This document shows positions 5,755 through 61,172 of a DNA stretch of 64,000 nt, piece by piece (the first letter of the stretch is position 1; each line of letters begins with the position of its first letter). The notes beneath the pieces are model-generated. The model worked only from the letters and a program-made list of their open reading frames with translations. It did no database searches and was not told where the DNA came from. The position numbers and the translations under genes were made by a program. This stretch comes from Azoarcus sp. (GTDB taxonomy: Bacteria > Pseudomonadota > Gammaproteobacteria > Burkholderiales > Rhodocyclaceae), in contig JAITMK010000132.1 in assembly GCA_031277415.1 (NCBI GenBank), forward strand, positions 3,977 to 67,976, in the 5' to 3' direction.

Positions 5755-5759
5755 TCACA

Positions 5760-6278
5760 ATGAGACGGATGAGAACAATACTGCTTGTTTTTCTGCTGGG
5801 TTTGTTTTGCAGAAACGCGTTGGCGTCGTCCGATATAGAACTTGCCAACATTGTTCGCAATGCGATGATTGAACGATTACTGGATGGCGACAGCACAAGG
5901 CTGAAGCAGGAAACTCCTGTTGAGGGTGCGTTTGTCAGGGAAATTGCTCCTGAACGACTCGGTTCCAATATCGTAAATTCTGCCTTCAAGGTTACAGGGA
6001 CAAAGTTTGAATTTGAATCATCGGAGCATGATATTCCTCAACATTTGTCTCACGTAGTCGTATGGATTTTTTCCTATCACGATAACAAGTCAGCCTTTCG
6101 CAATGCAAAATCCATCCGAAGTTTTTGTAAAAATGGTAATTGTTTCAAATCGAAAATATTGACTATTTTTTCATCTACCATCGTGGAAAATAAAATAGTG
6201 ATCGTTTTTACGGAAAATTCCGGAAACGAAAACGTTGTTTCTTTCATCAAGTCTGCGCCAGGACTCTTTGAGAAATAG
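5760..6278 (+). CDS. Hypothetical exported protein (AT-rich)
   Basis: Signal-peptide-like N-terminus (ILLVFLLGLFCRNALA); no family recognised. Confidence 0.6.
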   Translation: MRRMRTILLVFLLGLFCRNALASSDIELANIVRNAMIERLLDGDSTRLKQETPVEGAFVREIAPERLGSNIVNSAFKVTGTKFEFESSEHDIPQHLSHVVVWIFSYHDNKSAFRNAKSIRSFCKNGNCFKSKILTIFSSTIVENKIVIVFTENSGNENVVSFIKSAPGLFEK

Positions 6279-6330
6279 CCCGCACAAGTTGGGGTGGCGA
6301 AGGAATTTCAACGTTTTTGTGGTTAGTTGG

Positions 6331-6364
6331 ATGTTGGGATTCGCTTCGCTCGTCCCAACCTACG
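6331..6364 (-). repeat. REP-like palindrome (GTAG type)
   Basis: Minus strand GTAGGTTGGGACGAGCGAAGCGAATCCCAACA between convergent genes. Confidence 0.6.
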
Positions 6365-6371
6365 GCTCAAA

Positions 6372-6908
6372 TCATAAACCACCATCAACAGTAATAATTC
6401 CACTTCTAGAACATAGAAGCTCTTCAGTTTCCATTTTTATCAACTTTGCCTGCTTCACATCAATTCGCCACGCGAATTGCACAGGCGACATATCCCCCAC
6501 CCCCTTTCCATTTCCATTTCTTTCGAATACTCCAATAACCTCCTCTTCCATATTCTCTCCTCGAAGACTACAAAAGCCAATGAATTGCGGGCTTTGTTTT
6601 GAATGATCTGGAAATTTCAAAACATCCCTGACAAACCCACTATTATTCACAAGCATCACGTATTCATCGCCACATATTCGCCACGTAATAAGAGAAACAT
6701 CGTCGGAAACTCTAGTTCCACCTAAATCTTTCAGTCCCAAATCTTTATGTCTTTCCTCTATGATGACAACACGTTCGTTTGGTATCGTCCGTTTCAAAAG
6801 TGCTTTACGCACGTCAGACCCACACCGCACAGCACTGAAAGCGTCTGCTGCATATACCCCCGTGTTACAAGAAAACATCAACAGGACAACAAATAGTCCC
6901 TTCAACAT
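6372..6908 (-). CDS. Hypothetical exported protein
   Basis: AGGAGG RBS before ATG 6908; signal peptide ending VYA-A. Confidence 0.65.
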   Translation of the reverse strand: MLKGLFVVLLMFSCNTGVYAADAFSAVRCGSDVRKALLKRTIPNERVVIIEERHKDLGLKDLGGTRVSDDVSLITWRICGDEYVMLVNNSGFVRDVLKFPDHSKQSPQFIGFCSLRGENMEEEVIGVFERNGNGKGVGDMSPVQFAWRIDVKQAKLIKMETEELLCSRSGIITVDGGL

Positions 6909-6934
6909 GCTAACGCCCTCCTGAGTGATGGTTT

Positions 6935-9616
6935 TCACCCCTTCCCAAACCTCAACTCCCCTCCTTCAAACGTCACGCGAATCACATCCTTCGCCAGAAA
7001 CCGGCCTTCGAGTATGGCTTTGGCGAGGGGGTTTTCCAGTTTTTCCTGAATTGCGCGCTTCAGCGGGCGGGCGCCGAAAACCGGATCGAATCCCGCTTTG
7101 GCGAGTTCCGCCAATGCCGCATCATCGACTTCGAGCCGCATGTCGAGCCGCGTCAGACGCTGTTCCAGGTGTTGCAGTTGAATTTTGGCAATCCCGGCGA
7201 TATGCGCTTCGTCGAGGGCGTGGAAAACGACGATTTCGTCGATGCGGTTGATAAATTCGGGGCGGAAGGACGCCTTCACTTCATCCATGACCGCCCGTTT
7301 GATGAGGTCGTCACCCCCGCCCGCCCGCCGGGCCGCCCCAAGGGCGGGCGCGCCCCCTTGGGGAGCAGCGAATTCGGCAGAGCCGGATGAGCGTGGGGGC
7401 TCACCCCCCCCTGTCATCTGCTGAATCATCTGGCTGCCGAGGTTGGACGTCATGACGATCACCGTGTTCTTGAAGTCCACGGTGCGTCCCTGCCCGTCGG
7501 TCATGCGGCCATCGTCGAGGACTTGCAGCAGGACGTTGAACACGTCGGGATGCGCTTTTTCCACTTCGTCGAACAGAATCACGCTGTAGGGTTTGCGCCG
7601 CACCTGTTCGGTCAGGTAGCCGCCTTCTTCATAACCAACGTAACCCGGGGGCGCGCCAATGAGGCGGGCGACAGAGTGTTTCTCCATGAATTCGCTCATG
7701 TCGACGCGAATCAGATGCTCCCCGGAATCGAACAGAAAACTCGCCAGCGCCTTGCAAAGCTCCGTTTTGCCCACGCCGGTCGGCCCCAGGAACAGGAAAG
7801 AACCGTAGGGCCGGTTTTCGTCGGAAAGTCCGGCGCGCGAACGGCGGATGGCGTCCGAGACGAGCCGCACGGCTTCGTCCTGCCCGACGACACGCTCATG
7901 CAGACGCTCTTCCATCTTGAGCAGTTTTTCGCGCTCGCCCTGCATCATCCTGGAAACCGGAATGCCCGTGGCGCGGCTGACAACTTCGGCGATTTCTTCC
8001 GCGCCGACCTGGGTGCGCAGCAGCCGGTTCTGCTTTGATGCGCCGCCTTCATCACCATCCATTTTTTCGGCAGCTTTCAGTTGCGCTTCGAGCCTCGGCA
8101 ATTCGCCGTATTGCAGTTCAGCGAGTTTATCGAACTGACCTTTGCGCTGGAATTCGGCCATGCGCACCTTGAGATGGTCGATTTCCTCCTTGATGTGCCG
8201 GGCTCCGTGCAGTTGGGCTTTTTCGGCTTTCCAGACTTCTTCGAGATCGGAGTACTCCTTCTCCAGCCGGGCAATTTCCGCTTCGATCAGGGAAAGGCGC
8301 TTTTGCGAGGCTTCGTCCTTTTCTTTCTTGACCGCTTCGCGTTCGATTTTGAGCTGGATGAGGCGGCGGTCGAGTTTGTCCATGACTTCGGGCTTGGAGT
8401 CGATTTCCATCTTGATCCGCGCCGCCGCTTCGTCGATGAGGTCGATGGCCTTGTCGGGTAAAAAACGGTCGGTGATGTAACGGTTTGAGAGTTCGGAAGC
8501 CGCAACGATGGCCGGGTCGGTGATTTCCACCCCATGATGGATTTCGTATTTCTCCTGCAAACCGCGCAGGATGGCAATAGTCGCCTCGACCGTCGGCTCT
8601 TCGATCAGCACCTTCTGGAAACGGCGTTCCAGTGCCGCATCCTTTTCGATGTATTTGCGGTATTCGTCCAGCGTCGTCGCGCCGATGCAGTGCAAATCGC
8701 CCCGCGCTAGCGCCGGTTTGAGCATGTTGCCGGCGTCGATGGCCCCCTCGGCCTTGCCCGCGCCGACCATCGTATGCAATTCATCGATGAAGAGAATGAT
8801 GCGGCCTTCCTCGCGGGTGATTTCTTTCAGCACCGCTTTTAGACGCTCTTCAAATTCGCCCCGATACTTGGCCCCGGCGAGCAGCGCCGCCATGTCGAGC
8901 GCAAGCACCCGTTTTCCCTTGAGCGTTTCGGGAATCTCCTCGTTGACGATGCGCTGCGCAAGACCTTCGACGATGGCCGTCTTGCCAACGCCGGGTTCGC
9001 CGATCAGCACGGGATTGTTCTTGGAACGCCGCTGAAGAATCTGAATGGCGCGGCGGATTTCATCGTCACGCCCAATCACGGGATCGAGTTTGCCCATGCG
9101 CGCGCGCTCGGTGAGATCCATGCAATATTTCGATAGCGCCTCGCGCTGCCCTTCGCCTTCCTGGTTGTCGACCGCCGCCCCCCCGCGCACGGCATCGATG
9201 GCCGCTTCCAGCGCCTTGCGGTTCAGGCCATATTCGCGCAGCAAGCGCCCGGTTTCGCCTTTGTCCTCGACAAGCGCGAGCAGGAACATTTCACTGGCGA
9301 TGAACTGGTCGCCGCGTTTTTGCGCTTCGCGGTCGGTGAGATTGAGTAGCCCCCCAAGATCGCGCCCGACGGTCACGTTACCGCCGTGACCTTCGACTTT
9401 CGGCAGGTTTTCGAGCGCGCGGGCAAGCGCCGCTCTCAAGGGTTGCACGTTGACGCCCGCGCGCTGCAACAGCGATACCGTGCTGCCGTCTTCCTGTTCG
9501 AGCAGGGCCAGCAGCAAGTGCTGGGGTTCGATGAACTGCTGGTCGTTACCGACCGCCAGACTTTGCGCGTCGGCAAGCGCCTTCTGGAACCGGGTGGTGA
9601 GTTTGTCGAGTCGCAT
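6935..9616 (-). CDS. clpB: ClpB chaperone
   Basis: Start [11 protein letters not shown]; GEPGVGKT and GPTGVGKT Walker A motifs, middle coiled-coil, GARPLKR. Confidence 0.97.
7314..7411. repeat. GC-rich palindromic repeat-like element inserted in frame in clpB
   Basis: CCGCCGGGCCGCCCCAAGGGCGGGCGCGCCCCCTTGGGGAGCAGCGAA...GAGCGTGGGGG encodes a low-complexity ~30-aa insertion in NBD2. Confidence 0.55.
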
Positions 9617-21324: not shown

Positions 21325-23330
21325 AGGGATTGAGCGCGTACCTGCCTAATGCTCTATTCCGTAACCGTGTTCCTGCGGAACGCGCCGCTGCGCTCTCGCT
21401 GCATCGAGACCAGGGGGTCTGGCTCCTGGCAGCCGCAGCACTGACCCTCGTTCCTCATCTGCCCCAACTGCCCGCCTGGAGCATCGCGCTCTGCACAGCG
21501 CTGCTCATCTGGCGCAGTTGGCGTTTCTGGCACGGGAAAGCCGCGCCGCCGCGCTGGGTATTGCCGCCGCTCGTGCTGGCCGTCGCCGTCGGCATCCGCC
21601 TCGACCTGGGGCAATTTTTCGGTAAAACGCCAGGGCTGATTTTCCTGGCGGCGCTGCTTTGCCTGAAACTGTTGGAAATCCGGAACATGCGCGATATCCG
21701 CGTCGTGGTGCTTCTGTGCTTTTTCCTTCAGTTCGGGCTGTTCTTCAACGATCAATCCATGTCCGCCGCAGCACTGGCCCTTGTTGCCCTGCTGGTCACG
21801 CTCGGCAGCCAGATCGCGCTGGCCGATCCGTCCAGCAGCACACGCGAACGCCTGAAAACGGGCGCGGCATTGCTTGCGCTCGGCGTGCCGTTCATGCTGG
21901 CGCTGTTCCTGCTTTTCCCCCGGATTCCGCCGCTGTGGGGTATCCCAACGGATACGGTCGCCTCCACCGGCCTGTCCGATTCGATGTCGCCCGGTTCGAT
22001 CAGTGAATTGATCCTCTCGGACGAACTCGCTTTCGCCGTGGAATTCGACGGCCCTCTTCCGGCTCCGGCCGACCGCTACTGGCGCGGCCCGGTACTGAGC
22101 CAGTTCGATGGCCGCATCTGGCGCATGGCGGCACGTTTGCCGAAAGAGCTTCCTGCCTATACGCCCTCCGGCCGCCGTTTCGATTACCGGATCATGCTCG
22201 AACCTCACCAAAAGCACTTTGTACCAACGCTCGATTACCCCGCCGGGCCGGTGGAAGGAGTGCGTTTTTCCCTCGATTTTCAAACGCTGACGCAACATCC
22301 GGTCAGCTACCGCAGGCAATTCACGTTCAGCGCCTTTCCCGATACGGAAGTCGGACTACAGGAATACCAATACCCGGCAATGCTCGATCTGGCTCGCCGT
22401 TTGCCCATCGAAGGCAATCCGCGCGCACGGGCGCTGGCCGCCGAACTGAAAACGAGAACGCCCCAGCAAACGGTCGGCCGGATTCTTGGCTGGTTTTCCG
22501 AGGGACAATTCACCTACACGCTACAACCTCCAAAGCTCGGAGAAGACAGCATCGATTCTTTCCTGTTCGACACCCGCGCAGGCTTTTGCGAACACTTTGC
22601 CGAGGCTTTTGTTTTTCTGGCACGTGCGGCGAACATCCCGGCTCGCGTGGTTACAGGCTACCAGGGAGGGCATGTCAACCCCATCAACGGAACCATCAGC
22701 GTGCGCCAGTCGGACGCCCACGCCTGGGCCGAAGTCTGGTACGCGAAGCGCGGCTGGGTCAGGGTCGACCCCACCGCGCTCGTCGCGCCGATGCGTATCG
22801 AACAGGGGCTGGAAGGAGCGCTGGACAGGGGATTGCCCTTCATGTTGCGCCCGGAAAACGCATGGTTCCGCAAAGCGCGTGACGGTTGGGAAGCCGTCGC
22901 AATACGATGGAACCGGCTGGTCATTGCATATGACGGCAACCGGCAACGCGATCTGCTGAAATCCTTCGGGCTGGATGTTTTTTCTCCGTCGAAAGCGCTC
23001 GGTGTGGTTTCCATCGCCACCGCTCTCCTGATGGTCGCGTTTTACGGTTGGGCACAACTTCGCCGAAATGACGGCAGAATCGACCGCCTCGACAAAGCCT
23101 GGGCACGATTTTCGGCGCGGCTTGCCCCGCTCGGCCTTGCCCGCGCACCCGCCGAAGGCCCGCTCGACTACGCCAGAAGACTGGCTTCCTCCCGGCCTGC
23201 CGATGCCGATGATCTCACCTTGATCTGTACCCGGTACGCCCGTTTGCGTTATCGTCTACCGCCCTTGCGTGCGGAAGTCGACGCACTGGCACGTATCATT
23301 GATACTTTCAGCTTCAAACCGTCGGTTTGA
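21315..23330 (+). CDS. tgpA: TgpA-like DUF3488/transglutaminase membrane protein
   Basis: Multi-TM N-terminus; GFCEHFA, RVVTGYQGG, DAHAWAEVW, WVRVDPT catalytic motifs. Confidence 0.88.
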   Translation: MGIKGLSAYLPNALFRNRVPAERAAALSLHRDQGVWLLAAAALTLVPHLPQLPAWSIALCTALLIWRSWRFWHGKAAPPRWVLPPLVLAVAVGIRLDLGQFFGKTPGLIFLAALLCLKLLEIRNMRDIRVVVLLCFFLQFGLFFNDQSMSAAALALVALLVTLGSQIALADPSSSTRERLKTGAALLALGVPFMLALFLLFPRIPPLWGIPTDTVASTGLSDSMSPGSISELILSDELAFAVEFDGPLPAPADRYWRGPVLSQFDGRIWRMAARLPKELPAYTPSGRRFDYRIMLEPHQKHFVPTLDYPAGPVEGVRFSLDFQTLTQHPVSYRRQFTFSAFPDTEVGLQEYQYPAMLDLARRLPIEGNPRARALAAELKTRTPQQTVGRILGWFSEGQFTYTLQPPKLGEDSIDSFLFDTRAGFCEHFAEAFVFLARAANIPARVVTGYQGGHVNPINGTISVRQSDAHAWAEVWYAKRGWVRVDPTALVAPMRIEQGLEGALDRGLPFMLRPENAWFRKARDGWEAVAIRWNRLVIAYDGNRQRDLLKSFGLDVFSPSKALGVVSIATALLMVAFYGWAQLRRNDGRIDRLDKAWARFSARLAPLGLARAPAEGPLDYARRLASSRPADADDLTLICTRYARLRYRLPPLRAEVDALARIIDTFSFKPSV

Positions 23331-23412
23331 CCGGCACACAACCCGCAATAAGTCTTCGCGCCGATGCAATCCCTGTCTGGCAAACAGAGTTCACGATGAA
23401 GAGTTTTTTCAA

Positions 23413-24555
23413 ATGAGATCAAAACCCCCCTCCTCTCTGCTTCGCCTGGGCATCGTTTTCCTGACGCTCACCTTCGGGCCGGTCTGCACGCGCGCGGATT
23501 TCACAACGCGCGAAGATGTCACCGCTTTCATCGAAGAAATCGCCGCGCGCAATGAACTCGACCCCGCGCCAATCTACGTGGCACTTTCCCGCGCCAGTTA
23601 TCTGCCACGCGTCATCGAACTGATCAAGCCGCCCACCAAACGCGGGGCACGATCATGGAAACGTTATCGCAGCCAGTTTCTCGGCCACACGCATATCGAA
23701 GCCGGACTCAAAGCCTGGACGCAGTACGAAAGCGAATTGCGCCAGGCTGAAAAGCAATACGGCGTGCCGCCGGAAATCGTCCTGGCCATTCTCGGGGTGG
23801 AAACGATTTACGGTCGCAATACGGGCAGTTTCGAAACGCTTTCCGCACTGGCTACGCTGGCCTTCGACTATCCGCCGCGCGCCGACCTGTTTCGCGGCGA
23901 ACTGGAGTCGCTCTTCCTGCTCGCCAGGGATCAGAAACGCGACCCGGCCAGTTACACCGGCTCCTACGCAGGCGCAATCGGCTGGCCGCAATTCCTGCCG
24001 AGCAGCATCCTCCGTTTTGCGGTGGATTTCGACGGCAGCGGAAAAATCGACTTCGACAGCGACGCAGTAGACGCCATCGGCAGCATCGCCAATTACCTGC
24101 GCGAACACGGCTGGGCGGCGGGCGCGCCCATCGCAGTAAGAGTCCGGCTCACTCCCGGCGCGGATCCCGTGCCGCTCATCGAAGCAGGCATCGAACCCCG
24201 TTTAAGCCAGACACAACTGCAAGAAGCCGGTATCCGCCCGCTCACCGGCTCCCTGCGTCCCAACGATGAAGCCGCGTTTGTCGACCTGGAAACACCGGGA
24301 GCAGATACCGAATACTGGCTCGGCTACCGCAATTTCTACGCCATCACCCGCTACAACCGCAGCAGTTTCTACGCAATGGCGGTATTTCAGTTGGCGGATG
24401 CGCTACGAACGGCGCATAACGGCGGCAGTGTCGACGCCGCATCCCCCAAACCCGCAACAGCGCGCAAGGCTTCGCCAAAGGCCAAGGCAGGCAAGTCATC
24501 CAAAGCAACGCCGCGCAAGAAACAGGCGCCGCAGCGCTCGCGCCGGACGAAGTGA
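23413..24555 (+). CDS. mltB: Lytic murein transglycosylase B
   Basis: ILGVETIYG, GSYAGAIGWPQFLPSS, VDFDGSGKID, AITRYNRS. Confidence 0.93.
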   Translation: MRSKPPSSLLRLGIVFLTLTFGPVCTRADFTTREDVTAFIEEIAARNELDPAPIYVALSRASYLPRVIELIKPPTKRGARSWKRYRSQFLGHTHIEAGLKAWTQYESELRQAEKQYGVPPEIVLAILGVETIYGRNTGSFETLSALATLAFDYPPRADLFRGELESLFLLARDQKRDPASYTGSYAGAIGWPQFLPSSILRFAVDFDGSGKIDFDSDAVDAIGSIANYLREHGWAAGAPIAVRVRLTPGADPVPLIEAGIEPRLSQTQLQEAGIRPLTGSLRPNDEAAFVDLETPGADTEYWLGYRNFYAITRYNRSSFYAMAVFQLADALRTAHNGGSVDAASPKPATARKASPKAKAGKSSKATPRKKQAPQRSRRTK

Positions 24556-25122: not shown

Positions 25123-25198
25123 GTCCCCATCGTCTAGAGGCCTAGGACACCGCCCTTTCACGGCGATAACCGGGGTTCGAATCCCCGTGGGGACGCCA
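25123..25198 (+). tRNA. tRNA-Glu (TTC); probable prophage attL
   Basis: GTCCCCA/TGGGGAC acceptor, CTTTCAC loop, encoded CCA; C27-A43 mismatch. Confidence 0.95.
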
Positions 25199-26672
25199 CC
25201 TGTACCCCGCTTTTTTGCGGGCTGAAGCGGAAAGTAATTTCCGCCTCAAACGTTGTGGCGTCAAGCGTGATGCCCTCTACCATCTCGCGCAGCATGTCGG
25301 CTAAGCCCTCCGGGGCTGCGCCGCCCATGTCGCCAACAATCCCTTTGAGCATCCGTTTCACGTCCGACGCGCTTATCTCTCTTAGCACACGCGCGTTCGC
25401 GTTTTCACTCTCCATCCCTTCAAGCCTTACCTTGAGCGTTTCTCGCTCATCTTCACAGGCCTCGATCTGGCGAAGTAGCGCATCCGGCGCGCTGGTCTCT
25501 GAGAGCAAATCTACGAGGCGAGTAATTTTCTTGTCGATTTCCGCAATCCTGCGTTTAACGCTCGCGATTTCATCCGTGTTACTGCCTGCCGTTTTCGACA
25601 GCTTGCGGTAGTGCTCTGCAATGGATGAAGCCATTTCATCAGAGCGCATCTGCTCGATGACGCTCTCGACAATCACGCGCTCAATGGTGTCTGCTTGGAT
25701 TCTCGCGCCTTTTCCGATGCGGTACGTCCCGCCGTCTCCACTCCACGCGATACCCTCAGGAGAGACAAGCAGACCCGAAAGCAGATAGACGCGCTTCGCA
25801 GGTTTTCCGCCACTTCGTTTTTTCTGCTCGACCTGCGCCAGTATCGCTTCTGCCTCTTCGTCAGATATCAGCGCATCGTGTGTGTTCCTTTGGATGATCC
25901 ATTCTGCGCGTGGACGGTACTTCTGCCCTCCGACGTATCCATTGCCTGACTTTTCCGCTGTGCGGTTCCAGACAGTATGCCCAGCGTAGGTGAGCGCATT
26001 GCGCTCGATCTCTAGCAAGCTTGTGGTAGGTATGCCCGTACCTGCCAATTCCAAGGCGCGTGAGCGCTTAAATCCGCGCGCTCTGTGCATGAGGTAAGCG
26101 CGAACCTTGACGGCTTCCTCATTCGGCGCCAAGCGCGATTTCGTAACGCGCTGCCCGTCCCTTACTGCGCCGGTTTCTTCGTACTGTAGACGGTATCCTC
26201 GTGGCGCGCGACCGCCTGCCCGCCAGCCTTGTCGGATGTTTTCCGCCATACCTGATAGACCTTTCGCCTTGCTCGTCAGGCTGTGCCATTCGTCCATAGC
26301 TTGCAGGATGGACTTTAGCAGCATTTCCGTGATGGGGTCAGCGTCCGGCAGGCTCTTGTAAATAATCTTGATGCCGCGCCGGGCGCATTCGTGCTCCTCG
26401 AAGATGATGGCGAGTGCACGCCGCCGGGCAATACGTGCTGTATCCAGCACAAGGATATGATCCCATTTTCTGTCGGCTGATCGGATAGCGCGAAGCAGGG
26501 ATTGAAACCCTGGCCTATCGTCGTCCTTACCGCTCTCTACCGCATCAGCGAACTCAGCGACAATTACGATACCGCGCGCGGAAGCAAGTTCTGACAGCGC
26601 ACGCCTCTGCGCGTCTATGGAAACGTCAGAACGATCTTTTGAAGATCGGAGGTAGCTGGCCGCGCGGATCAT
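25158..26672 (-). CDS. Large serine recombinase (integrase)
   Basis: YLRSS catalytic Ser, DTARIAR, GWRAGGRAPRGY, WIIQRNTHDALIS, coiled coil; ends ASPRGFEPRLSP over the tRNA. Confidence 0.93.
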   Translation of the reverse strand: MIRAASYLRSSKDRSDVSIDAQRRALSELASARGIVIVAEFADAVESGKDDDRPGFQSLLRAIRSADRKWDHILVLDTARIARRRALAIIFEEHECARRGIKIIYKSLPDADPITEMLLKSILQAMDEWHSLTSKAKGLSGMAENIRQGWRAGGRAPRGYRLQYEETGAVRDGQRVTKSRLAPNEEAVKVRAYLMHRARGFKRSRALELAGTGIPTTSLLEIERNALTYAGHTVWNRTAEKSGNGYVGGQKYRPRAEWIIQRNTHDALISDEEAEAILAQVEQKKRSGGKPAKRVYLLSGLLVSPEGIAWSGDGGTYRIGKGARIQADTIERVIVESVIEQMRSDEMASSIAEHYRKLSKTAGSNTDEIASVKRRIAEIDKKITRLVDLLSETSAPDALLRQIEACEDERETLKVRLEGMESENANARVLREISASDVKRMLKGIVGDMGGAAPEGLADMLREMVEGITLDATTFEAEITFRFSPQKSGVQVASPRGFEPRLSP

Positions 26673-56454: not shown

Positions 56455-56527
56455 CCGGGCCGAGCGCATCTCTACAAAGTTCGATCCAGTTGTCATGCAT
56501 GATCTCGCGCAGCTCGTCAGCTTTCAT
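56273..56527 (-). CDS. Hypothetical protein coupled to cro
   Basis: GGAG RBS inside cro 3' end; overlaps opposite-strand ORF by 182 nt. Confidence 0.4.
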   Translation of the reverse strand: MKADELREIMHDNWIELCRDALGPVIPLPPVASISEECRYIERALLRLQKLPHLTPGRLDALLPEVVGFFQERIRVLFCRGESL

Positions 56528-56708
56528 TCGACGGCTCCTCCTTCTTCTGCTCCGGGAACAGGTCGGGGCGGGAAACTCTCACCGCAAGCGGTATTCCTCT
56601 TCTCATCCAGTTGCCGCATCGCTGCACGCCATGCGGCTTCGGATAGCCGAGCTTCTCAGCAAGTGCTGTCGGCCCACCATGCCAACGAATAATTTCTTTA
56701 TCGTTCAT
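56517..56708 (-). CDS. cro: Cro-like repressor
   Basis: IIRWHGGPTALAEKLG...VQRCGNWMRRGIP HTH; divergent from cI. Confidence 0.85.
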   Translation of the reverse strand: MNDKEIIRWHGGPTALAEKLGYPKPHGVQRCGNWMRRGIPLAVRVSRPDLFPEQKKEEPSNES

Positions 56709-56714
56709 GACGAC

Positions 56715-56782
56715 ACTAAACACTATGTTTAATTAAAAGTCAACTCCGTGTGTATCAGCAACATGTTTATATTCCCTATGAT
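56715..56782. promoter_or_regulatory. OR region: pR, pRM and three 15-bp operators
   Basis: Operators TAAACACTATGTTTA (56717-56731), TCAACTCCGTGTGTA (56740-56754), TCAGCAACATGTTTA (56755-56769); pR TTGACT-N17-TTTAGT (minus); pRM -10 TATGAT 56777-56782. Confidence 0.8.
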
Positions 56783-56788
56783 TCAGCT

Positions 56789-57448
56789 ATGCACGAAACA
56801 ATGAAACGCCTCTATACAGCAGCAAAAGAACTCAAAGCCATCTCCGGGCAGACTGAGGTTGCAAAGCTGCTTGGTGAATCTCCACAAACGGTAAATAATT
56901 GGGAGAAGCGCGGAGTCTCAACACAAGGAAGGTTGAACGCTCAAGCAATTATTGGTTGTGATGCGCTGTGGATAAAAACAGGCAAAGGCGTAATGAGTAT
57001 TTATACTCGGCGTGATGGTGTTTCCAGATTTGATGTCCTGGACGCTCGCGCATCCTGCGGTCCGGGCGCAGTCAATGCGGACTACCCCGTTGTCGTCCAA
57101 TCAATCGAGATGCCAAAGGAAATCGCCAGACAGTTGATCGGGCGCACAGATGACGCCGTGCGGATCATCCGCGCCACGCACGACAGCATGGTTCCAACGA
57201 TCAACCCGGACGACCTGCTGTTCATCGACACCACCGTCACAGAGTTCCAGGCGGAAGGTATCTATCTCGTATTGCACGGTAGGGAACTTGTCTGCAAGAG
57301 ACTATCTATCATCGGGAAGAGGCTCAAGGTTACGTCAGACAACAAATTCTACGAATCATGGCTTTGGGATGAAAGGCTAGAAGACGACCGCATCGTTGGG
57401 AAAGTTCTTCGCGCTCTACCGATGGACTTCAAAAATTTTGGGGGGTGA
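56789..57448 (+). CDS. cI: CI-like repressor with S24 peptidase domain
   Basis: QTEVAKLLGESPQTVNNWEKRG HTH; DSMVPT (Ser) and CKRL (Lys) autocleavage residues; CGPG cleavage-loop region. Confidence 0.93.
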   Translation: MHETMKRLYTAAKELKAISGQTEVAKLLGESPQTVNNWEKRGVSTQGRLNAQAIIGCDALWIKTGKGVMSIYTRRDGVSRFDVLDARASCGPGAVNADYPVVVQSIEMPKEIARQLIGRTDDAVRIIRATHDSMVPTINPDDLLFIDTTVTEFQAEGIYLVLHGRELVCKRLSIIGKRLKVTSDNKFYESWLWDERLEDDRIVGKVLRALPMDFKNFGG

Positions 57449-57452
57449 TGCT

Positions 57453-58391
57453 GTGAGGAGCGAGCAAGAAATAGCATATGATTCTCGCAGATATTTCAAT
57501 ATGGTGGATACTTATATTGAAGAAGCAGGACACTTGCAGATGTTTCTCGATCTACGCGGAAGCGATACAGACTACCTTGGGTCTGTAGGCGTTTTGTGTG
57601 TAACAGGGTTTTCATGTGGCATACCAGAGGAAGAAATTGCAGAAATTATATTAGAATCTATTACAAAATATAATAATCAAGGCGCTGATTCCGCTATTGA
57701 GTTTTTAAGTGAATCAGAGATAATAATACATTCAAAGAATGAAGATACAAATAAAGCACAAAAAAATAAACAGTCAAACATGGATCAAAAAAAAATAACA
57801 GATAAAATAGAAGAAAAAACGCAAGAAGAAATTAATAAATATAAGAGATCTGACGGGCTTTTTGACTGGTATATGGTTTTTGATATTAAAAATACAGCAA
57901 CACAGAAACAAATAAGAGAAGCCTTTATTAAACTTCGCTCTGAATTATCTGGAGTAACTGAGACGGATAATATACAAAAAGCAGTCCGCTATTCTTTGTT
58001 GCTAGCCGGTATTAAACAAATAGGCGATAAGGAGAAAAGAGAAAAGTACGATAGATTTTGTCGTTACACGTATGGCCGCGCACAACTTCTCACAGCCCTT
58101 GAGACAACGAGACAAAATATTGAAATGGAGAAAATGCCGGACATATCTTTTATTAATAAAGCAGACACACGCTTAAAACGCATTTCACTTATAGCATTTC
58201 CTTTCTTCGTTGTAGCTACATTATTCAGGTTTTCAAAAGATATGGGTTATAGATGGGATATTGACGATGTTTCTCTAACTACAGCACTGCTAATAATGGC
58301 ATCAGTATTATGCCTACTGATCGCTTTCACACGCATTTCTGACTGGATAAACGGCGATAAACCACCACCCTCACCCGCCGACGAACGGTAG
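57453..58391 (+). CDS. J-domain-like protein lacking HPD, two C-terminal TM helices
   Basis: WYMVFDIKNTATQKQIREAFIKL...IGDKEKREKYDRF; AT-rich; GTG 4 nt after cI stop. Confidence 0.65.
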   Translation: MRSEQEIAYDSRRYFNMVDTYIEEAGHLQMFLDLRGSDTDYLGSVGVLCVTGFSCGIPEEEIAEIILESITKYNNQGADSAIEFLSESEIIIHSKNEDTNKAQKNKQSNMDQKKITDKIEEKTQEEINKYKRSDGLFDWYMVFDIKNTATQKQIREAFIKLRSELSGVTETDNIQKAVRYSLLLAGIKQIGDKEKREKYDRFCRYTYGRAQLLTALETTRQNIEMEKMPDISFINKADTRLKRISLIAFPFFVVATLFRFSKDMGYRWDIDDVSLTTALLIMASVLCLLIAFTRISDWINGDKPPPSPADER

Positions 58392-59276
58392 CCTGATCTG
58401 GCGCATGGCCTGCTTGTGGTCGATGACTTGCTCGACGGTGTATTCTGTCCTTACGCCTTCACGGGTCTGCCACTGCTGCATCCTTACCTGACAAACAAGA
58501 ACGTCACCTTTTGAGAACGCTTCCATGTTTTGGTCTACACGGGAAAGGAATTCAGTATCTATGATACGAGCCTGAATTGTTGCGTTCCCATCATACAACC
58601 TCCATTTATTATCTTCTTTAAAAGCGAGGGAAATTATTGAAAAACTCATCCTGCGAGATTCATCTATTATTAAATCTTCACCAACAGGAGGAGTTTCAAA
58701 AAACACAGCGTCGCACGATTCTACCTGCTCAGAAAAACTCAAGTCATCACCAAAAGCAACGCGGTCAATACCATCCCGGTTAATTGGTGAAATAACAGCA
58801 GCAAGGTTTTCACGTACAGATCTGTCTGTCAGAAGAGTATAAACATGGCGCTCAGTTTCAATAAATTCATCATCTTCTAAATAAATAATGACCCCGTTTT
58901 CATTTTCAGATATAGATTTTATCTTTCTGTTTTTGAGTTTTTTCAAAACACCTACAAGACCGCGTCCAGCGCCAAAAATAATAGCTATCAACGCAGTCGC
59001 GTTTATTGTTGCTTGCGCACCCTTCCCCGTAAGAAGATCGGAGACCTGATTCACAAAGTCTTGCGACAAGATTAGGTCAATACCAAACGACCCCGTTTTG
59101 AATGAAGCCTTGACTTCTGTTCTAGCTCTTACCTTGTTTCCATTCAGGGCGTTGCTTGCAGCGGCCATCATATCGCCCACAGCAAGGAGTGCCGGGGCAA
59201 GCTCTCGCACATCCATTGTGTGCGCATCAAGCGCACTGCCGCAGTAGGTTACGCGGAATGCGGCTGATGAACTCAT
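58371..59276 (-). CDS. Conserved prophage hypothetical protein
   Basis: YCGSALDAHTMDVRELAPALLA...FKTGSF...KWRL...F.KGDVL pattern; upstream TGGTAGGAT extended -10. Confidence 0.75.
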   Translation of the reverse strand: MSSSAAFRVTYCGSALDAHTMDVRELAPALLAVGDMMAAASNALNGNKVRARTEVKASFKTGSFGIDLILSQDFVNQVSDLLTGKGAQATINATALIAIIFGAGRGLVGVLKKLKNRKIKSISENENGVIIYLEDDEFIETERHVYTLLTDRSVRENLAAVISPINRDGIDRVAFGDDLSFSEQVESCDAVFFETPPVGEDLIIDESRRMSFSIISLAFKEDNKWRLYDGNATIQARIIDTEFLSRVDQNMEAFSKGDVLVCQVRMQQWQTREGVRTEYTVEQVIDHKQAMRQIRLPFVGG

Positions 59277-59389
59277 TGCGTTTTTCCCCTGTAGTTACAA
59301 GCAAATCCTACCACAGCCATCCACCATCAGGCTGTCGGCTATCCTGCTACATCACGAGCACCAGCTTCATAGCTTCATACTTTCCTCAT

Positions 59390-59683
59390 CTAGACTACGG
59401 CAATCGTCTTGATGCCGTATCGAACACAAGCCTCGAACTCCATCCAACAGTCACGCGAATCTCGCCAGCCGTCCATGAAGTACACAGCATCTGCCTGCGC
59501 AATGATCTGAAATGATTTACCAAGGCAATCAAGCGCACGGTTGCCTGTAGGCGTCTCGTCTGTGACGTAGCTATCAATGATCTCGTAACCCAGTTCGGTG
59601 ATCAACGATACGACTTCTGCTCGATTGGACTCTATCTGTTCGCGTGTCAGCCCTTTCATGGGCTGAGAAATCATGATTTTCAT
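59390..59683 (-). CDS. DUF4406-like (nucleoside deoxyribosyltransferase-like fold) protein
   Basis: KIMISQPMKG, ADAVYFMDGW..S..C..E motifs; GGAGG RBS. Confidence 0.7.
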   Translation of the reverse strand: MKIMISQPMKGLTREQIESNRAEVVSLITELGYEIIDSYVTDETPTGNRALDCLGKSFQIIAQADAVYFMDGWRDSRDCWMEFEACVRYGIKTIAVV

Positions 59684-59734
59684 ACCTTCCTCCGTGCCGT
59701 GACCATCACGGCTGAGGGTATTTTACACAAAATA

Positions 59735-59774
59735 TAAACATGATGTTGACTAAAACTTAAACATAGTGTTTAAT
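59735..59774 (+). promoter_or_regulatory. OL/pL
   Basis: TAAACATGATGTTGA (59735-59749) and TAAACATAGTGTTTA (59758-59772; exact reverse complement of the 56717 operator); TTGACT-N17-TTTAAT. Confidence 0.85.
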
Positions 59775-60145: not shown

Positions 60146-60450
60146 TGAACGAACTCCGCAACCTCATCGCTAAAAAGGAAACACTCCTCGACTTCGCTGA
60201 GCGCCTTGGGCGACAACTCGATGAGGCGGGCATCACCTACGGCGATCTCATGGCCGCGCTGGCGTGGCAACTGCAAAACGAATGCAACTACGACGCTGAT
60301 TACTACCTCAACGACATCGCAAAAGAAGCGCGAGGCGTCATCAAGCACTTCCGCCATATCGACGACGACGAAGAGCGCGCCGACATGGAGGACTACTTCG
60401 CAAGCCGCGAATCGTTCGACGACTACCACGCCTACAGGGGAGCAGCATGA
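60142..60450 (+). CDS. Early acidic hypothetical protein
   Basis: ATGA coupling on both sides. Confidence 0.7.
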   Translation: MMNELRNLIAKKETLLDFAERLGRQLDEAGITYGDLMAALAWQLQNECNYDADYYLNDIAKEARGVIKHFRHIDDDEERADMEDYFASRESFDDYHAYRGAA

Positions 60451-61172
60451 CTACCAAGACACCCACCAAGACACCTCGTAAGAAGCAAGCGAAGCCAAAG
60501 CAAACCGCCGAAGCCACAGAAGTCATCACAGCCTATAAAGGCTTCGACAAAAACTTGCAGTGCCGTGGCTATCAGTTCGAGGTAGGTAAAACCTACCAGC
60601 ACGACGGCGAAGTAAAGACGTGTAAATCAGGATTCCACGCCTGCGAATATCCGCTTGATGTGTTTAATTATTACCAACCATCAGCAGGCAACAGGTTCGC
60701 GGTAGTAAAAGCATCCGGACAAATCAGTCGTCACAGCAATGACACAAAGATTGCCAGCGAAATACTTACTGTAGAGGCAGAGATTAGGATACACGATCTA
60801 GTGGCGCGTGCCGTTGATTGGGTGCTGTTAAAAATCGACAAATCTTGTGAGCAAACCAACACGGGCAACTACTCAGCCGCGACGAACACGGGCGACCAGT
60901 CAGCCGCGACGAACACGGGCAACCAGTCAGTCGCGACCAACACGGGCTACCGGTCAGCCGCGACCGTAAGCGGAAAAGAATCTATTGCCATCTCGATTGG
61001 CGCAGAAGGTCGCGCAAAAGGTGCCGAAGGAAGCGCAATCGTGCTCGTGTATAGAGACGATGAATGCAGGCTTATCCATATACGTGCCAGCAAGGTAGGC
61101 GAAAACGGCATCAAGCCGGACACGTTTTACATGCTGGACAAACACGGCAATTTCATCGAGGCGGACGAATGA
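60447..61172 (+). CDS. Widespread phage early protein with 9-aa repeats
   Basis: AYKGFDKNLQCRGYQFEVG...GFHACEYPLDVF; TNTGxxSAA x4; VGENGIKPDTFY.L. Confidence 0.8.
   Translation: MTTKTPTKTPRKKQAKPKQTAEATEVITAYKGFDKNLQCRGYQFEVGKTYQHDGEVKTCKSGFHACEYPLDVFNYYQPSAGNRFAVVKASGQISRHSNDTKIASEILTVEAEIRIHDLVARAVDWVLLKIDKSCEQTNTGNYSAATNTGDQSAATNTGNQSVATNTGYRSAATVSGKESIAISIGAEGRAKGAEGSAIVLVYRDDECRLIHIRASKVGENGIKPDTFYMLDKHGNFIEADE
60855..60962 (+). repeat. 4 x 27-bp coding tandem repeat
   Basis: AC(C/G)AACACGGGC...TCAG(C/T)CGCG units. Confidence 0.85.

What the first reader, a model, noticed from the sequence alone, without database searches (positions are those of the whole stretch)
57453..59683. Three-gene cassette between cI and OL (rexAB position): candidate new anti-phage or exclusion system
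Seen: an AT-rich J-domain-like membrane gene co-oriented with cI, converging (21-nt overlap) on a 301-aa conserved unknown and a DUF4406-like gene transcribed away from OL. Established: the slot between cI and pL holds lysogen-expressed exclusion/defence genes (lambda rexAB). Inference: a sensor/effector combination (membrane pseudo-co-chaperone, unknown, possible nucleotide glycosidase) that I do not recognise as a named system.
Basis: inference. Interest (0 to 1): 0.72.

Follow-up and report, generated by a model that had tools for sequence, protein, structure and literature searches.

The report
Three unrelated accessory genes beside cI
The three genes between this prophage's repressor and its early promoter are real, but they are three independent add-ons rather than one system; one is a distant relative of a tested mycobacteriophage defence gene, and another belongs to an undescribed family of membrane proteins that follow phage repressors.

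Summary
The described anatomy is correct. The cI-type repressor gene (56750/56789-57448, +) is followed after 4 nt by an AT-rich gene A (57453-58391, +). Gene A converges, with a 21-nt overlap, on the 301-aa gene B (58371-59276, -). The DUF4406 gene C (59390-59683, -) lies upstream of B and points away from OL/pL.

The interpretation as one three-gene sensor/effector system is not supported.
- **No co-occurrence:** none of 62 other loci carrying a B homolog has an A or C homolog within 5-6 kb, and B's neighbours vary.
- **Gene B is already catalogued:** it belongs to PADLOC candidate PDC-S42 and NCBIfam "LAPAL". It is also a remote homolog of mycobacteriophage MichelleMyBell gp29, the toxic part of the tested gp29/gp30 prophage defence.
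- **Gene A is nearly an orphan:** it has a J-domain fold without the HPD motif. Its two-helix membrane module defines a small family that lies directly behind cI-type repressors in at least five other phage contigs.
- **Gene C is an ordinary phage gene:** its candidate promoter lies under an OL operator.

Best reading: a mosaic accessory slot holding one probable single-gene abortive-infection gene (B), one probably lysogen-expressed membrane protein (A) and one probable early nucleotide-metabolism gene (C).

The parts
56517..56708 (-). cro-like gene, transcribed divergently from cI. The ORF as listed starts at GTG 56723; the ATG at 56708 is the likelier start.
   Evidence: phrog_8008 DNA-binding protein, E 1.1e-15; sequence read
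56718..56730 (.). Operator-like palindrome AAACACTATGTTT in the cro-cI intergenic region (OR)
   Evidence: One of only three matches to AAACA-N3-TGTTT (up to 1 mismatch) in the 64 kb. All three lie in the two immunity control regions.
56750..57448 (+). cI-type repressor with HTH and Peptidase_S24 domains. The likely start is ATG 56789, giving 219 aa.
   Evidence: Pfam Peptidase_S24 2.4e-13 with a sub-threshold HTH_3 match (E 0.0012; 19.2 bits against a cut-off of 23), and phrog_4 transcriptional repressor 1.3e-33; the gene call on the identical contig gives 219 aa
57453..58391 (+). Gene A, 312 aa, 36.5% GC. It begins 4 nt after the cI stop codon, behind a GGGGGG Shine-Dalgarno-like run. It has a unique helical N-terminus (aa 1-120), a degenerate J domain and a C-terminal two-helix membrane hairpin.
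57864..58052 (+). J-like domain of gene A (aa 138-200). The HPD motif is replaced by S-G-V.
   Evidence: Pfam DnaJ E 6.4e-4, below the gathering score; 7 of 14 relatives match DnaJ, best 2.5e-12; 46 of the top 50 Foldseek PDB hits are J domains; alignment
58182..58337 (+). Conserved membrane hairpin module of gene A: TM1 at aa 244-262 and TM2 at aa 273-291, preceded by the motif (A/D)T(R/K)xKR
   Evidence: Hydropathy peaks of 1.59 and 2.47. This is the part shared with about 30 small proteins; alignment A4 has 69% mean column identity.
58371..59276 (-). Gene B, 301 aa. It is a member of the LAPAL / PDC-S42 family and a remote homolog of MichelleMyBell gp29.
   Evidence: PADLOC PDLC05015 E 7.6e-100; NCBIfam NF053583 267 bits against a cut-off of 60; phrog_3243; homology to gp29
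59187..59201 (-). LAPAL motif of gene B (aa 26-30)
   Evidence: Read from the translation; nearly invariant in alignment A5
58944..59000 (-). Central hydrophobic, glycine-broken helix pair of gene B (aa 93-111, ATALIAIIFGAGRGLVGVL)
   Evidence: Hydropathy 1.92; the aligned segment of MMB gp29 is also the most hydrophobic part of that protein, at 1.09; low-confidence helices in the model
58407..58679 (-). C-terminal beta-barrel of gene B (aa about 200-290), OB-fold-like
   Evidence: AlphaFold model with pLDDT 88. The best PDB matches are SSB, RPA and the LysRS anticodon-binding OB folds: Rim1 6cqm has target-normalised TM 0.67 and probability 1.0, but E is only 0.029.
59277..59389 (-). 113-nt spacer between genes C and B, with no recognisable terminator. 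A weak extended -10 (TGGTAGGAT) is the only promoter-like feature.
   Evidence: Sequence read; no terminator in the scan
59390..59683 (-). Gene C, 97 aa, DUF4406 / nucleoside 2-deoxyribosyltransferase-like. A strong GGAGG lies 5 nt before the ATG.
   Evidence: Pfam DUF4406 30.3 bits against a cut-off of 22; phrog_355 3.9e-14; sequence
59720..59749 (-). Candidate promoter of gene C (and possibly B): TCAACA-18-TAAAAT. Its -35 lies inside the operator at 59736-59748.
   Evidence: Promoter scan, 9 of 12 matches, no better than the shuffled background; coordinates read
59736..59771 (.). OL: two operator-like palindromes, AAACATGATGTTG (59736-59748) and AAACATAGTGTTT (59759-59771), with centres 23 bp apart
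59746..59774 (+). pL-like promoter TTGACT-17-TTTAAT, pointing into the early operon on the + strand
   Evidence: Read from the sequence. The scanner missed it because it requires A at position 2 of the -10 hexamer.

Best explanation
The stretch between cI and OL is a mosaic accessory slot with three separately acquired genes, not one system.

**Gene A**
- It is most likely translated from the cI (pRM) transcript in the lysogen.
- It is an inner-membrane protein with a cytoplasmic degenerate J domain and a conserved two-helix hairpin.
- It belongs to a small family whose members sit directly behind cI-type repressors in unrelated temperate phages.
- I infer a lysogen-expressed membrane function of the superinfection-exclusion or Rex-B-like kind.

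**Gene B**
- It is the probable anti-phage gene. It is a full-length member of the LAPAL / PDC-S42 family, which includes mycobacteriophage MichelleMyBell gp29, the toxic component of a tested abortive-infection-like prophage defence.
- The family has an N-terminal alpha/beta domain, a hydrophobic glycine-broken helix pair and a C-terminal OB-like barrel.
- I infer that the barrel or the N-terminal domain recognises a phage product, and that the protein then becomes toxic, possibly at the membrane, stopping phage production.

**Gene C**
- It is a small nucleoside 2-deoxyribosyltransferase-like protein of a kind found in both lytic and temperate phages.
- Its candidate promoter is covered by an OL operator, so it is more likely an early lytic gene than a lysogen defence gene.

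**Shown:** the anatomy, family memberships, homology to gp29, lack of co-occurrence, and recurrence of the A family behind repressors.
**Inferred:** expression timing, the defence phenotype and the mechanism.
For: **Independence of the three genes**
- Gene A has only itself among 5.8 billion indexed proteins. An exhaustive HMMER search of 1.84 billion representatives gave 36 weak relatives.
- Gene B has 1140 relatives.
- tblastn with A and C against 50 genomic and 12 viral loci carrying B homologs found no relative within 5-6 kb. The only hit was one at E 0.006.
- Pfam families of B's immediate neighbours are heterogeneous.
- The three genes differ in GC content: 36.5%, 45.4% and 49.7%.

**Gene B**
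- It matches PADLOC PDC-S42 at E 7.6e-100 and NCBIfam LAPAL_fam with 267 bits.
- MichelleMyBell gp29 matches the same PADLOC model at E 1.6e-16 over aa 39-297.
- hhalign of the B family against gp29 gives 93% probability and E 3.2e-7 over 225 columns.
- My own HMM finds gp29 at E 4.1e-7 among 9063 ORFs, and every other locus-derived hit reviewed lies in a locus retrieved as holding a B-family gene; one hit (L050_1237_1428, E 2e-5) lies away from that locus's B-family gene and was not examined.
- B homologs sit alone next to the integrase or repressor in Lactobacillus phage A2, Listeria phage vB_LmoS_188 and Bifidobacterium phage PMBT6. They lie directly behind an S24 repressor in L018 and L051.
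- Literature on the MichelleMyBell defence: gp29 is toxic and gp30 is a membrane protein (PMC11856565); the system is abortive-infection-like (PMC6426606); the efficiency of plating of phage Tweety falls by 4-5 orders of magnitude (PMC8549241).

**Gene A**
- The J-domain fold is supported.
- A-family members lie directly downstream of, and co-oriented with, a repressor in L070 (HTH_3), L077 (S24), L074 (S24), L079 (HTH_3+S24) and L080 (divergent cro-like gene).

**Gene C**
- Its homologs occur in an Aeromonas phage of 117 kb, in Faecalibacterium and Thiohalocapsa phages, and in gut phage contigs.
- The overlap of operator and promoter can be read.
Against: - No expression or phenotype data exist. 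The sequence comes from a termite-gut metagenome, and only DNA runs hold it.
- The similarity of B to gp29 is remote: 23% identity over the C-terminal 74 residues by BLASTP.
- The validated system needs gp30, which is absent here.
- PDC-S42 itself is an untested candidate (10.1101/2024.01.29.577857).
- If B is transcribed only from the promoter next to OL, it would be repressed in the lysogen. That fits a prophage defence gene poorly, and I found no convincing promoter for B alone.
- The candidate promoter of C is a 9-of-12 match, no better than the shuffled background.
- The tight convergent overlap of A and B could reflect functional coupling that a co-occurrence test cannot detect for a near-orphan gene.
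- NCBIfam names the B family a putative phage structural protein.
Confidence: 0.6

Rival explanations
1. A and B form a two-component, Rex-like or gp29/gp30-like abortive-infection pair. B is the cytoplasmic sensor or toxin. The two-helix membrane protein A takes the role played by the small two-helix protein gp30 in MichelleMyBell. Their convergent, overlapping 3' ends couple their expression.
For: - The validated relative works as gp29 plus a 67-aa two-helix membrane protein (PMC11856565).
- A ends in a two-helix hairpin and abuts B with a 21-nt overlap.
- Both genes are compositionally foreign.
- The slot and the logic resemble lambda rexAB and Sbash 30/31 (PMC6426606, PMC6426596).
Against: - A-family members occur behind repressors without any B homolog, and B homologs occur without A in 62 of 62 other loci.
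- A and B are convergent, not co-transcribed as gp29/gp30 and rexAB are.
- Their GC contents differ by 9 points.
- A shows no sequence similarity to gp30.
- Only 1-2 independent loci among 64 B-family loci (the near-identical pair L046/L049) have a plausible small membrane ORF directly downstream; three more passed the crude hydropathy filter but look spurious, so the family mostly works alone.
Confidence: 0.12
2. One reading: A, B and C together form one new three-gene sensor/effector defence system, expressed in the lysogen like rexAB.
For: - All three lie in the cI-OL slot.
- The identical arrangement is seen on a second assembly, a 15.8-kb Logan contig.
Against: - That second contig is the same phage, with 99-100% identical proteins, so it is not independent.
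- There is no co-occurrence anywhere else.
- The genes lie on two strands, in at least two transcription units.
- C-type genes occur in lytic phages.
- The candidate promoter of C is under an OL operator.
Confidence: 0.04
3. None of the three is a defence gene. B would be a lysogeny-module or structural accessory protein, as its NCBIfam name suggests. A would modulate repressor function or prophage induction from the membrane. C would be nucleotide metabolism.
For: - NCBIfam calls the family a putative phage structural protein.
- PDC-S42 is untested.
- The strict linkage of the A family to repressors would also fit a regulatory role, for example in control of induction.
Against: - B homologs lie in lysogeny modules, next to housekeeping genes and on a multi-copy mobile unit, not in structural operons.
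- A homolog, gp29, has a reported defence phenotype (PMC11856565, PMC8549241).
- PADLOC derived the family from genes embedded in known defence systems.
Confidence: 0.15

Closest known systems
Mycobacteriophage MichelleMyBell gp29/gp30 prophage defence (DefenseFinder MMB_gp29_gp30)
   Same: - Gene B and gp29 have similar length (301 and 310 aa) and match the same PADLOC profile nearly end to end.
- They share the central hydrophobic segment and the C-terminal barrel motif: F(K/D)(E/D)xxKWR ... F(L)xRV ... (E/K)H(R/K).
- Both lie in the accessory region of a temperate phage.
   Different: - Identity is very low: 23% over 74 residues.
- No gp30-like small membrane gene lies downstream on the same strand. 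That space is taken by the convergent gene A.
- The host is a Gram-negative-type bacterium from termite gut, not an actinobacterium.
PADLOC PDC-S42 / NCBIfam NF053583 LAPAL family / phrog_3243
   Same: - Gene B is a full-length, high-scoring member with the LAPAL motif.
- Like most members, it has no conserved partner gene.
   Different: Nothing structural differs. Here it sits between cI and OL, facing the repressor operon, whereas the characterised phage members sit next to the integrase.
Lambda rexAB (and Sbash 30/31, CarolAnn 43/44)
   Same: - The genomic slot is the same, between cI and OL.
- Gene A follows cI in the same orientation, as rexA does.
- There is a membrane protein beside a soluble protein.
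   Different: - There is no sequence or domain relationship. No DUF4747 match was found in the Pfam scan at E up to 0.1.
- A has two helices, not four.
- B and C are on the opposite strand.
Membrane-anchored J-domain proteins (for example E. coli DjlA) and pseudo-J proteins
   Same: Gene A has the J-domain fold attached to a membrane anchor.
   Different: - The HPD motif needed to stimulate DnaK is missing in A and degenerate in all its relatives.
- The anchor is C-terminal, is a hairpin, and is better conserved than the J domain.
DUF4406 / nucleoside 2-deoxyribosyltransferase-like phage proteins (phrog_355)
   Same: Gene C matches both models over its whole length.
   Different: No close solved structure was found by sequence. 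Its activity and substrate are unknown.

Membership tests
PADLOC PDC-S42 / NCBIfam LAPAL_fam (gene B) | Full-length match to the family profile above its cut-off | tested here: met
   PDLC05015 E 7.6e-100, aa 3-298 against profile positions 2-300 of 302; NF053583 267.4 bits against a cut-off of 60
PADLOC PDC-S42 / NCBIfam LAPAL_fam (gene B) | LAPAL motif near the N-terminus | tested here: met
   RELAPALLAVGD, aa 24-35; the motif columns are invariant or nearly invariant in 68 sequences
PADLOC PDC-S42 / NCBIfam LAPAL_fam (gene B) | Single-gene unit without a conserved partner | tested here: met
   Neighbours are heterogeneous in 38 loci. Only one near-identical pair of loci (L046/L049) among 64 has a plausible small membrane ORF downstream; three further ORFs passed the hydropathy filter but look spurious.
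MichelleMyBell gp29/gp30 defence system | A gp29 homolog | tested here: met
   PADLOC model against gp29 E 1.6e-16; hhalign 93% probability, E 3.2e-7; own HMM E 4.1e-7 among 9063 ORFs
MichelleMyBell gp29/gp30 defence system | A gp30-like small two-helix membrane protein encoded directly downstream on the same strand | tested here: not met
   The only - strand ORF of 40 aa or more downstream of B is a 45-aa ORF antisense to the AT-rich part of gene A (57774-57911). It lies 460 nt away and is probably an artefact.
MichelleMyBell gp29/gp30 defence system | Lysogenic expression and protection against heterotypic phages | not testable with these tools
   Metagenomic source; no RNA runs exist
Lambda RexAB-type exclusion | Genes co-transcribed with cI from pRM | tested here: inconclusive
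   Gene A is co-oriented with cI and starts 4 nt after its stop codon, which is compatible. B and C are on the opposite strand, which is incompatible.
Lambda RexAB-type exclusion | A RexA-like DUF4747 protein and a RexB-like four-helix membrane protein | tested here: not met
   No DUF4747 match for A, B or C at E up to 0.1. A has two hydrophobic helices.
J-domain co-chaperones (DnaJ/Hsp40) | J-domain fold | tested here: met
   46 of the top 50 Foldseek hits are J domains; 7 of 14 relatives match Pfam DnaJ
J-domain co-chaperones (DnaJ/Hsp40) | HPD tripeptide between helices II and III | tested here: not met
   The window protein has S-G-V at that place. Its relatives have HPS, FDP, GPS or YLS.
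DUF4406 / nucleoside 2-deoxyribosyltransferase-like (gene C) | Match to PF14359 above the gathering score | tested here: met
   30.3 bits against a cut-off of 22, aa 1-92 against profile positions 1-88 of 91
DUF4406 / nucleoside 2-deoxyribosyltransferase-like (gene C) | Catalytic glutamate of the deoxyribosyltransferase superfamily | tested here: inconclusive
   A DGW...WMEFEAC segment resembles the superfamily's D...E motif, but only by eye and from my memory of the family. No structure or aligned reference was available.
   None of 62 independent B loci holds A or C. None of the A-family loci holds B.

The most novel reading that the evidence does not exclude
Gene A represents an undescribed class of repressor-cotranscribed membrane proteins. 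Each has a strongly conserved two-helix hairpin with interchangeable cytoplasmic heads, and here the head is an HPD-less J domain. In this phage A would have been recruited as the membrane partner of a gp29-like toxin (B). The result would be a Rex-like two-component abortive-infection system whose two halves are wired to the immunity switch from opposite sides: A to pRM/OR, and B (with C) to OL. Convergent transcription would set their ratio.
Probability: 0.1. Interest if true: 0.65.

Novelty: new member of a known kind. Interest (0 to 1): 0.4.

Why it matters
- **A catalogue entry gains an experimental anchor.** PDC-S42 is one of 145 untested PADLOC candidates. It is linked here to MichelleMyBell gp29, an experimentally tested prophage defence. 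I found no paper stating that link, although one GenBank record already labels a family member with the DefenseFinder gp29 model.
- **The family is widespread in temperate phages.** It occurs in phages of Proteobacteria, Firmicutes and Actinobacteria, usually as a single gene. This makes it a tractable target for a mechanism study. The fold is new in combination: an alpha/beta domain, a hydrophobic hairpin and an OB-like barrel.
- **The gene-A family is a small, previously unnamed group.** It behaves like rexB or sie genes by position, directly behind cI. It would be worth one cloning experiment.
- **A caution for scans of this kind.** Adjacency in a moron slot is not evidence of a system.

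Tried and rejected
- **Near-identical DNA:** none in 50,697 phage records or in E. coli genomes. No annotated relative of the region exists.
- **Literature:** no paper mentions "PDC-S42" or "LAPAL motif", and the supplements of the PADLOC embedding preprint do not either. The primary MichelleMyBell paper (Dedrick 2017, PMC5508108) is not held, so its content is cited second-hand.
- **Locus search with the full gene-A alignment:** it failed for lack of a conserved stretch. An alignment of the C-terminal module worked, but gave only 1 viral and 3 metagenomic loci.
- **Gene A in the phage collection by tblastn:** no match.
- **Gene C against PDB sequences:** no match.
- **Foldseek of B against PDB:** no full-length match. 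Only OB folds matched the C-terminal barrel, and ferredoxin-like folds matched weakly elsewhere. BFVD gave two uncharacterised phage proteins, from Mycobacterium phage Pipsqueaks and a DUF6575 protein.
- **Search for a gp30-like small membrane ORF downstream of B homologs:** essentially negative.
- **RNA-seq:** only three DNA metagenome runs were returned, and only one of them holds the sequence, so expression could not be examined.
- **Promoter and terminator scans:** no more sites than in shuffled sequence, so all transcription-unit statements are inferences.
- **B as a structural protein:** rejected on genomic context.
- **The 45-aa antisense ORF 57774-57911 as a gp30 analogue:** rejected. 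It is the Phe-rich mirror of a Lys-rich, AT-rich coding stretch.
Full report
**1. What is in the sequence**

The immunity region of a temperate phage lies at 56.5-59.9 kb of the window.
- Other parts of the prophage are also present: a large serine recombinase (25161-26672), a GP7-type capsid gene, a T7-type head-tail connector, and RecT on the far side.
- A cro-like gene (56517-56708, -) and a cI-type repressor gene (HTH plus Peptidase_S24; 56750/56789-57448, +) diverge from a short control region.
- Gene A starts at GTG 57453, 4 nt after the cI stop codon and behind a G-run. It ends at 58391.
- Gene B runs the other way, 59276 to 58371, and overlaps A by 21 nt.
- Gene C (59683 to 59390, -) lies 113 nt upstream of B and has a strong GGAGG ribosome-binding site.
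- The palindrome AAACA-N3-TGTTT occurs three times in 64 kb. One copy lies between cro and cI. Two copies lie at 59736 and 59759, 23 bp apart.
- The count of three is not itself unusual, since 2.1 are expected by chance. What is unusual is that all three fall in the two control regions.
- The two OL copies cover the -35, the spacer and the -10 of a promoter TTGACT-17-TTTAAT. That promoter points into the + strand early genes.

**2. Gene B**

*Family membership.* B is not an unknown.
- It matches PADLOC PDC-S42 end to end (E 7.6e-100).
- It matches NCBIfam NF053583, "LAPAL motif-containing putative phage structural protein" (267 bits against a cut-off of 60), and phrog_3243.
- The family is large: 1140 hits in a word-seeded search, from Burkholderia, Xanthomonas, Stenotrophomonas, Rhodocyclus and many alphaproteobacteria.
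- PDC systems are 145 untested candidates, proposed because their genes are embedded in known defence systems (10.1101/2024.01.29.577857). No paper in the library names PDC-S42.

*Where the family sits.*
- Distant members (25-29% identity) lie alone in the lysogeny modules of temperate phages:
  - Lactobacillus phage A2 ORF19, between the lysin and integrase genes;
  - Listeria phage vB_LmoS_188 ORF27, next to the integrase;
  - Bifidobacterium phage PMBT6, next to the integrase.
- A further distant member lies in a Vibrio tectivirus-class element.
- In L018 and L051 the gene follows an S24 repressor directly.
- In a Rhodopila genome a 3.8-kb unit carrying it is present in three nearly identical copies.

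*The link to MichelleMyBell gp29.* The Vibrio record's note reads "MMB_gp29_gp30__gp29". That led me to mycobacteriophage MichelleMyBell, whose genes 29 (310 aa) and 30 (67 aa, two hydrophobic helices) I retrieved. Three tests support homology:
- gp29 matches the PDC-S42 profile at E 1.6e-16 over aa 39-297.
- A profile of 68 proteobacterial B relatives aligns to gp29 with 93% probability and E 3.2e-7 over 225 columns.
- An HMM I built from those 68 sequences finds gp29 at E 4.1e-7 among 9063 ORFs. Every other locus-derived hit I reviewed lies in a locus retrieved as holding a B-family gene, apart from one unexamined hit (L050_1237_1428, E 2e-5).

According to the papers held, gp29 is toxic and gp30 is a putative membrane protein (PMC11856565). 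The MichelleMyBell system behaves like an abortive infection (PMC6426606). The MichelleMyBell lysogen lowers the plating of phage Tweety by 4-5 orders of magnitude (PMC8549241). The primary paper was not available.

*Structure.* The AlphaFold model is confident (pLDDT 88, pTM 0.69).
- It has an N-terminal beta-alpha-beta domain and a low-confidence hydrophobic helix pair (aa 93-111, hydropathy 1.92).
- It also has a middle alpha/beta domain and a C-terminal beta-barrel.
- No solved structure matches it as a whole. The barrel resembles the OB folds of SSB, RPA and LysRS.
- No catalytic domain is recognisable.

**3. Gene A**

*A near-orphan.* The word-seeded search of 5.8 billion proteins returned only the protein itself. 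The exhaustive search of 1.84 billion representatives returned 36 hits.
- Three proteins of about 180 aa cover aa 120-300.
- The rest share only aa about 232-302.
- The first 120 residues are unique. The chance that a stretch of that composition stays open is about 1e-4.

*J-like domain.* The middle part is a J domain by fold and by the Pfam matches of its relatives (7 of 14, best 2.5e-12). The HPD tripeptide is missing or degenerate in all of them.

*Membrane hairpin.* The C-terminal part is a two-helix hairpin. It is much better conserved than the rest, with 69% mean column identity across distant members. It is combined with different N-terminal heads.

*Genomic context.* Members lie directly downstream of, and co-oriented with, a cI-type repressor in five other loci:
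- L070, behind an HTH_3 repressor with a divergent cro-like gene;
- L077, behind an S24 repressor;
- L074, behind an S24 repressor, with a 4-nt overlap;
- L079, behind an HTH_3+S24 repressor, with a 4-nt overlap;
- L080, behind a 125-aa protein with a divergent Cro/YdaS-like gene.

One more divergent member is a reverse-oriented insert between the portal and scaffold genes, and another lies near an integrase. None of these loci holds a B homolog.

A is therefore the gene that truly occupies the rex-like position. It belongs to a small unnamed family (four members fall in phrog_14336, function unknown).

**4. Gene C**

- C matches DUF4406 above the gathering score, and phrog_355 "nucleoside 2-deoxyribosyltransferase".
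- Its relatives occur in a 117-kb Aeromonas phage, in Faecalibacterium and Thiohalocapsa phages, and in gut phage contigs. It is a general phage gene, not a lysogeny-specific one.
- Its only candidate promoter (TCAACA-18-TAAAAT, 59749-59720) has its -35 inside the operator at 59736-59748.
- If cI binds there, C would be off in the lysogen, and so would B if they are co-transcribed. This is an inference from a weak promoter match. It is also the main unresolved point for B.

**5. Is it one system?**

No.
- From B's side, tblastn with A and C found nothing within 5-6 kb in 50 genomic and 12 viral loci, apart from one hit at E 0.006.
- The Pfam families of the nearest upstream and downstream genes in 38 loci are heterogeneous. 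Peptidase_S24 occurs in 3. DNA methylase and IS1595 transposase occur in 2 each. The rest are mostly housekeeping genes, and none is DnaJ or DUF4406.
- From A's side, none of the A-family loci holds a B homolog.
- The only other contig with all three genes carries the same phage, with 99-100% identical proteins, from an independent Logan assembly (SRR14710899). The runs reported as holding this sequence are termite-gut metagenomes.
- The different GC contents also point to separate acquisitions.

**6. Mechanism, committed**

- *A (confidence about 0.5-0.6 for lysogenic co-expression with cI; about 0.4 for an exclusion or abortive-infection role).* A is made from the cI transcript and inserts as a hairpin with both ends in the cytoplasm, as the positive charges before TM1 suggest. 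It acts at the inner membrane against incoming phages or as a Rex-B-like effector. The HPD-less J head is a protein-binding module, not a DnaK activator.
- *B (about 0.6 for a defence function).* B acts as a single-protein abortive-infection gene, as its relative gp29 does with gp30. The OB-like barrel or the N-terminal domain would recognise a phage product. Toxicity may involve the hydrophobic helix pair. This last step is speculation.
- *C (about 0.6).* C is an early nucleotide-metabolism or nucleotide-directed gene, with no role in the other two.

The main rival keeps A and B together as a gp29/gp30-like pair (0.12). It cannot be excluded, because a co-occurrence test has little power for a near-orphan gene.

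**7. Verdict**

- The region is a mosaic accessory slot, not a new three-gene system.
- The likely defence gene belongs to an already catalogued family with a tested distant relative, so the novelty is that of a new member of a known kind.
- The repressor-linked membrane family of gene A is the least explored element and the one most worth an experiment.

Noticed in passing
window 56718-56730, 59736-59748, 59759-59771: The palindrome AAACA-N3-TGTTT occurs only three times in 64 kb, and all three copies lie in the two immunity control regions. These are probably the cI/Cro operators. The OR region also holds a spacer-less AACATGTT at about 56761.
   Followed up: partly
L023, L024, L025 at 5388-9180 (Rhodopila MAG NZ_CBDICE010000006): A 3.8-kb unit carrying a gene-B homolog and a 342-aa gene on the opposite strand is present in three copies of 99.97-100% identity in one genome. 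The family therefore also travels on a multi-copy mobile element. IS1595-type transposase hits occur among the downstream neighbours of B homologs.
   Followed up: partly
L072 4462-4878 and L073 4782-5198: A 138-aa three-helix member of the gene-A membrane-module family sits in reverse orientation between the portal and scaffold/capsid genes of a podovirus-like metagenomic contig. This is a classic moron arrangement.
   Followed up: no
window 60447-61172 (+): A DUF7666 protein in the pL operon (Pfam 2.1e-37) has a C-terminal run of repeats, roughly NTG-x-xSAAT. Its function is unknown.
   Followed up: no
window 25161-26672 (-) and 23269-24552 (+): A large serine recombinase (Resolvase plus Recombinase domains) is probably the prophage integrase and marks one prophage end near 25-27 kb. 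An SLT_2 lytic transglycosylase lies just outside it.
   Followed up: no
window 57774-57911 (-): A 45-aa, very hydrophobic ORF lies antisense to the AT-rich, lysine-rich part of gene A. It is probably a mirror artefact (AAA read as TTT) rather than a gene.
   Followed up: partly
L046 and L049 at 6981-7199: In two Pseudomonadales MAGs the B homolog is followed on the same strand by a conserved 72-aa single-helix membrane ORF. These are the only loci that resemble the gp29/gp30 arrangement.
   Followed up: no
window 58419-58436 (+): A weak hairpin followed by a T-rich tract lies 28 nt after the stop codon of gene A, inside the 3' end of gene B. It could terminate the cI-A transcript.
   Followed up: no
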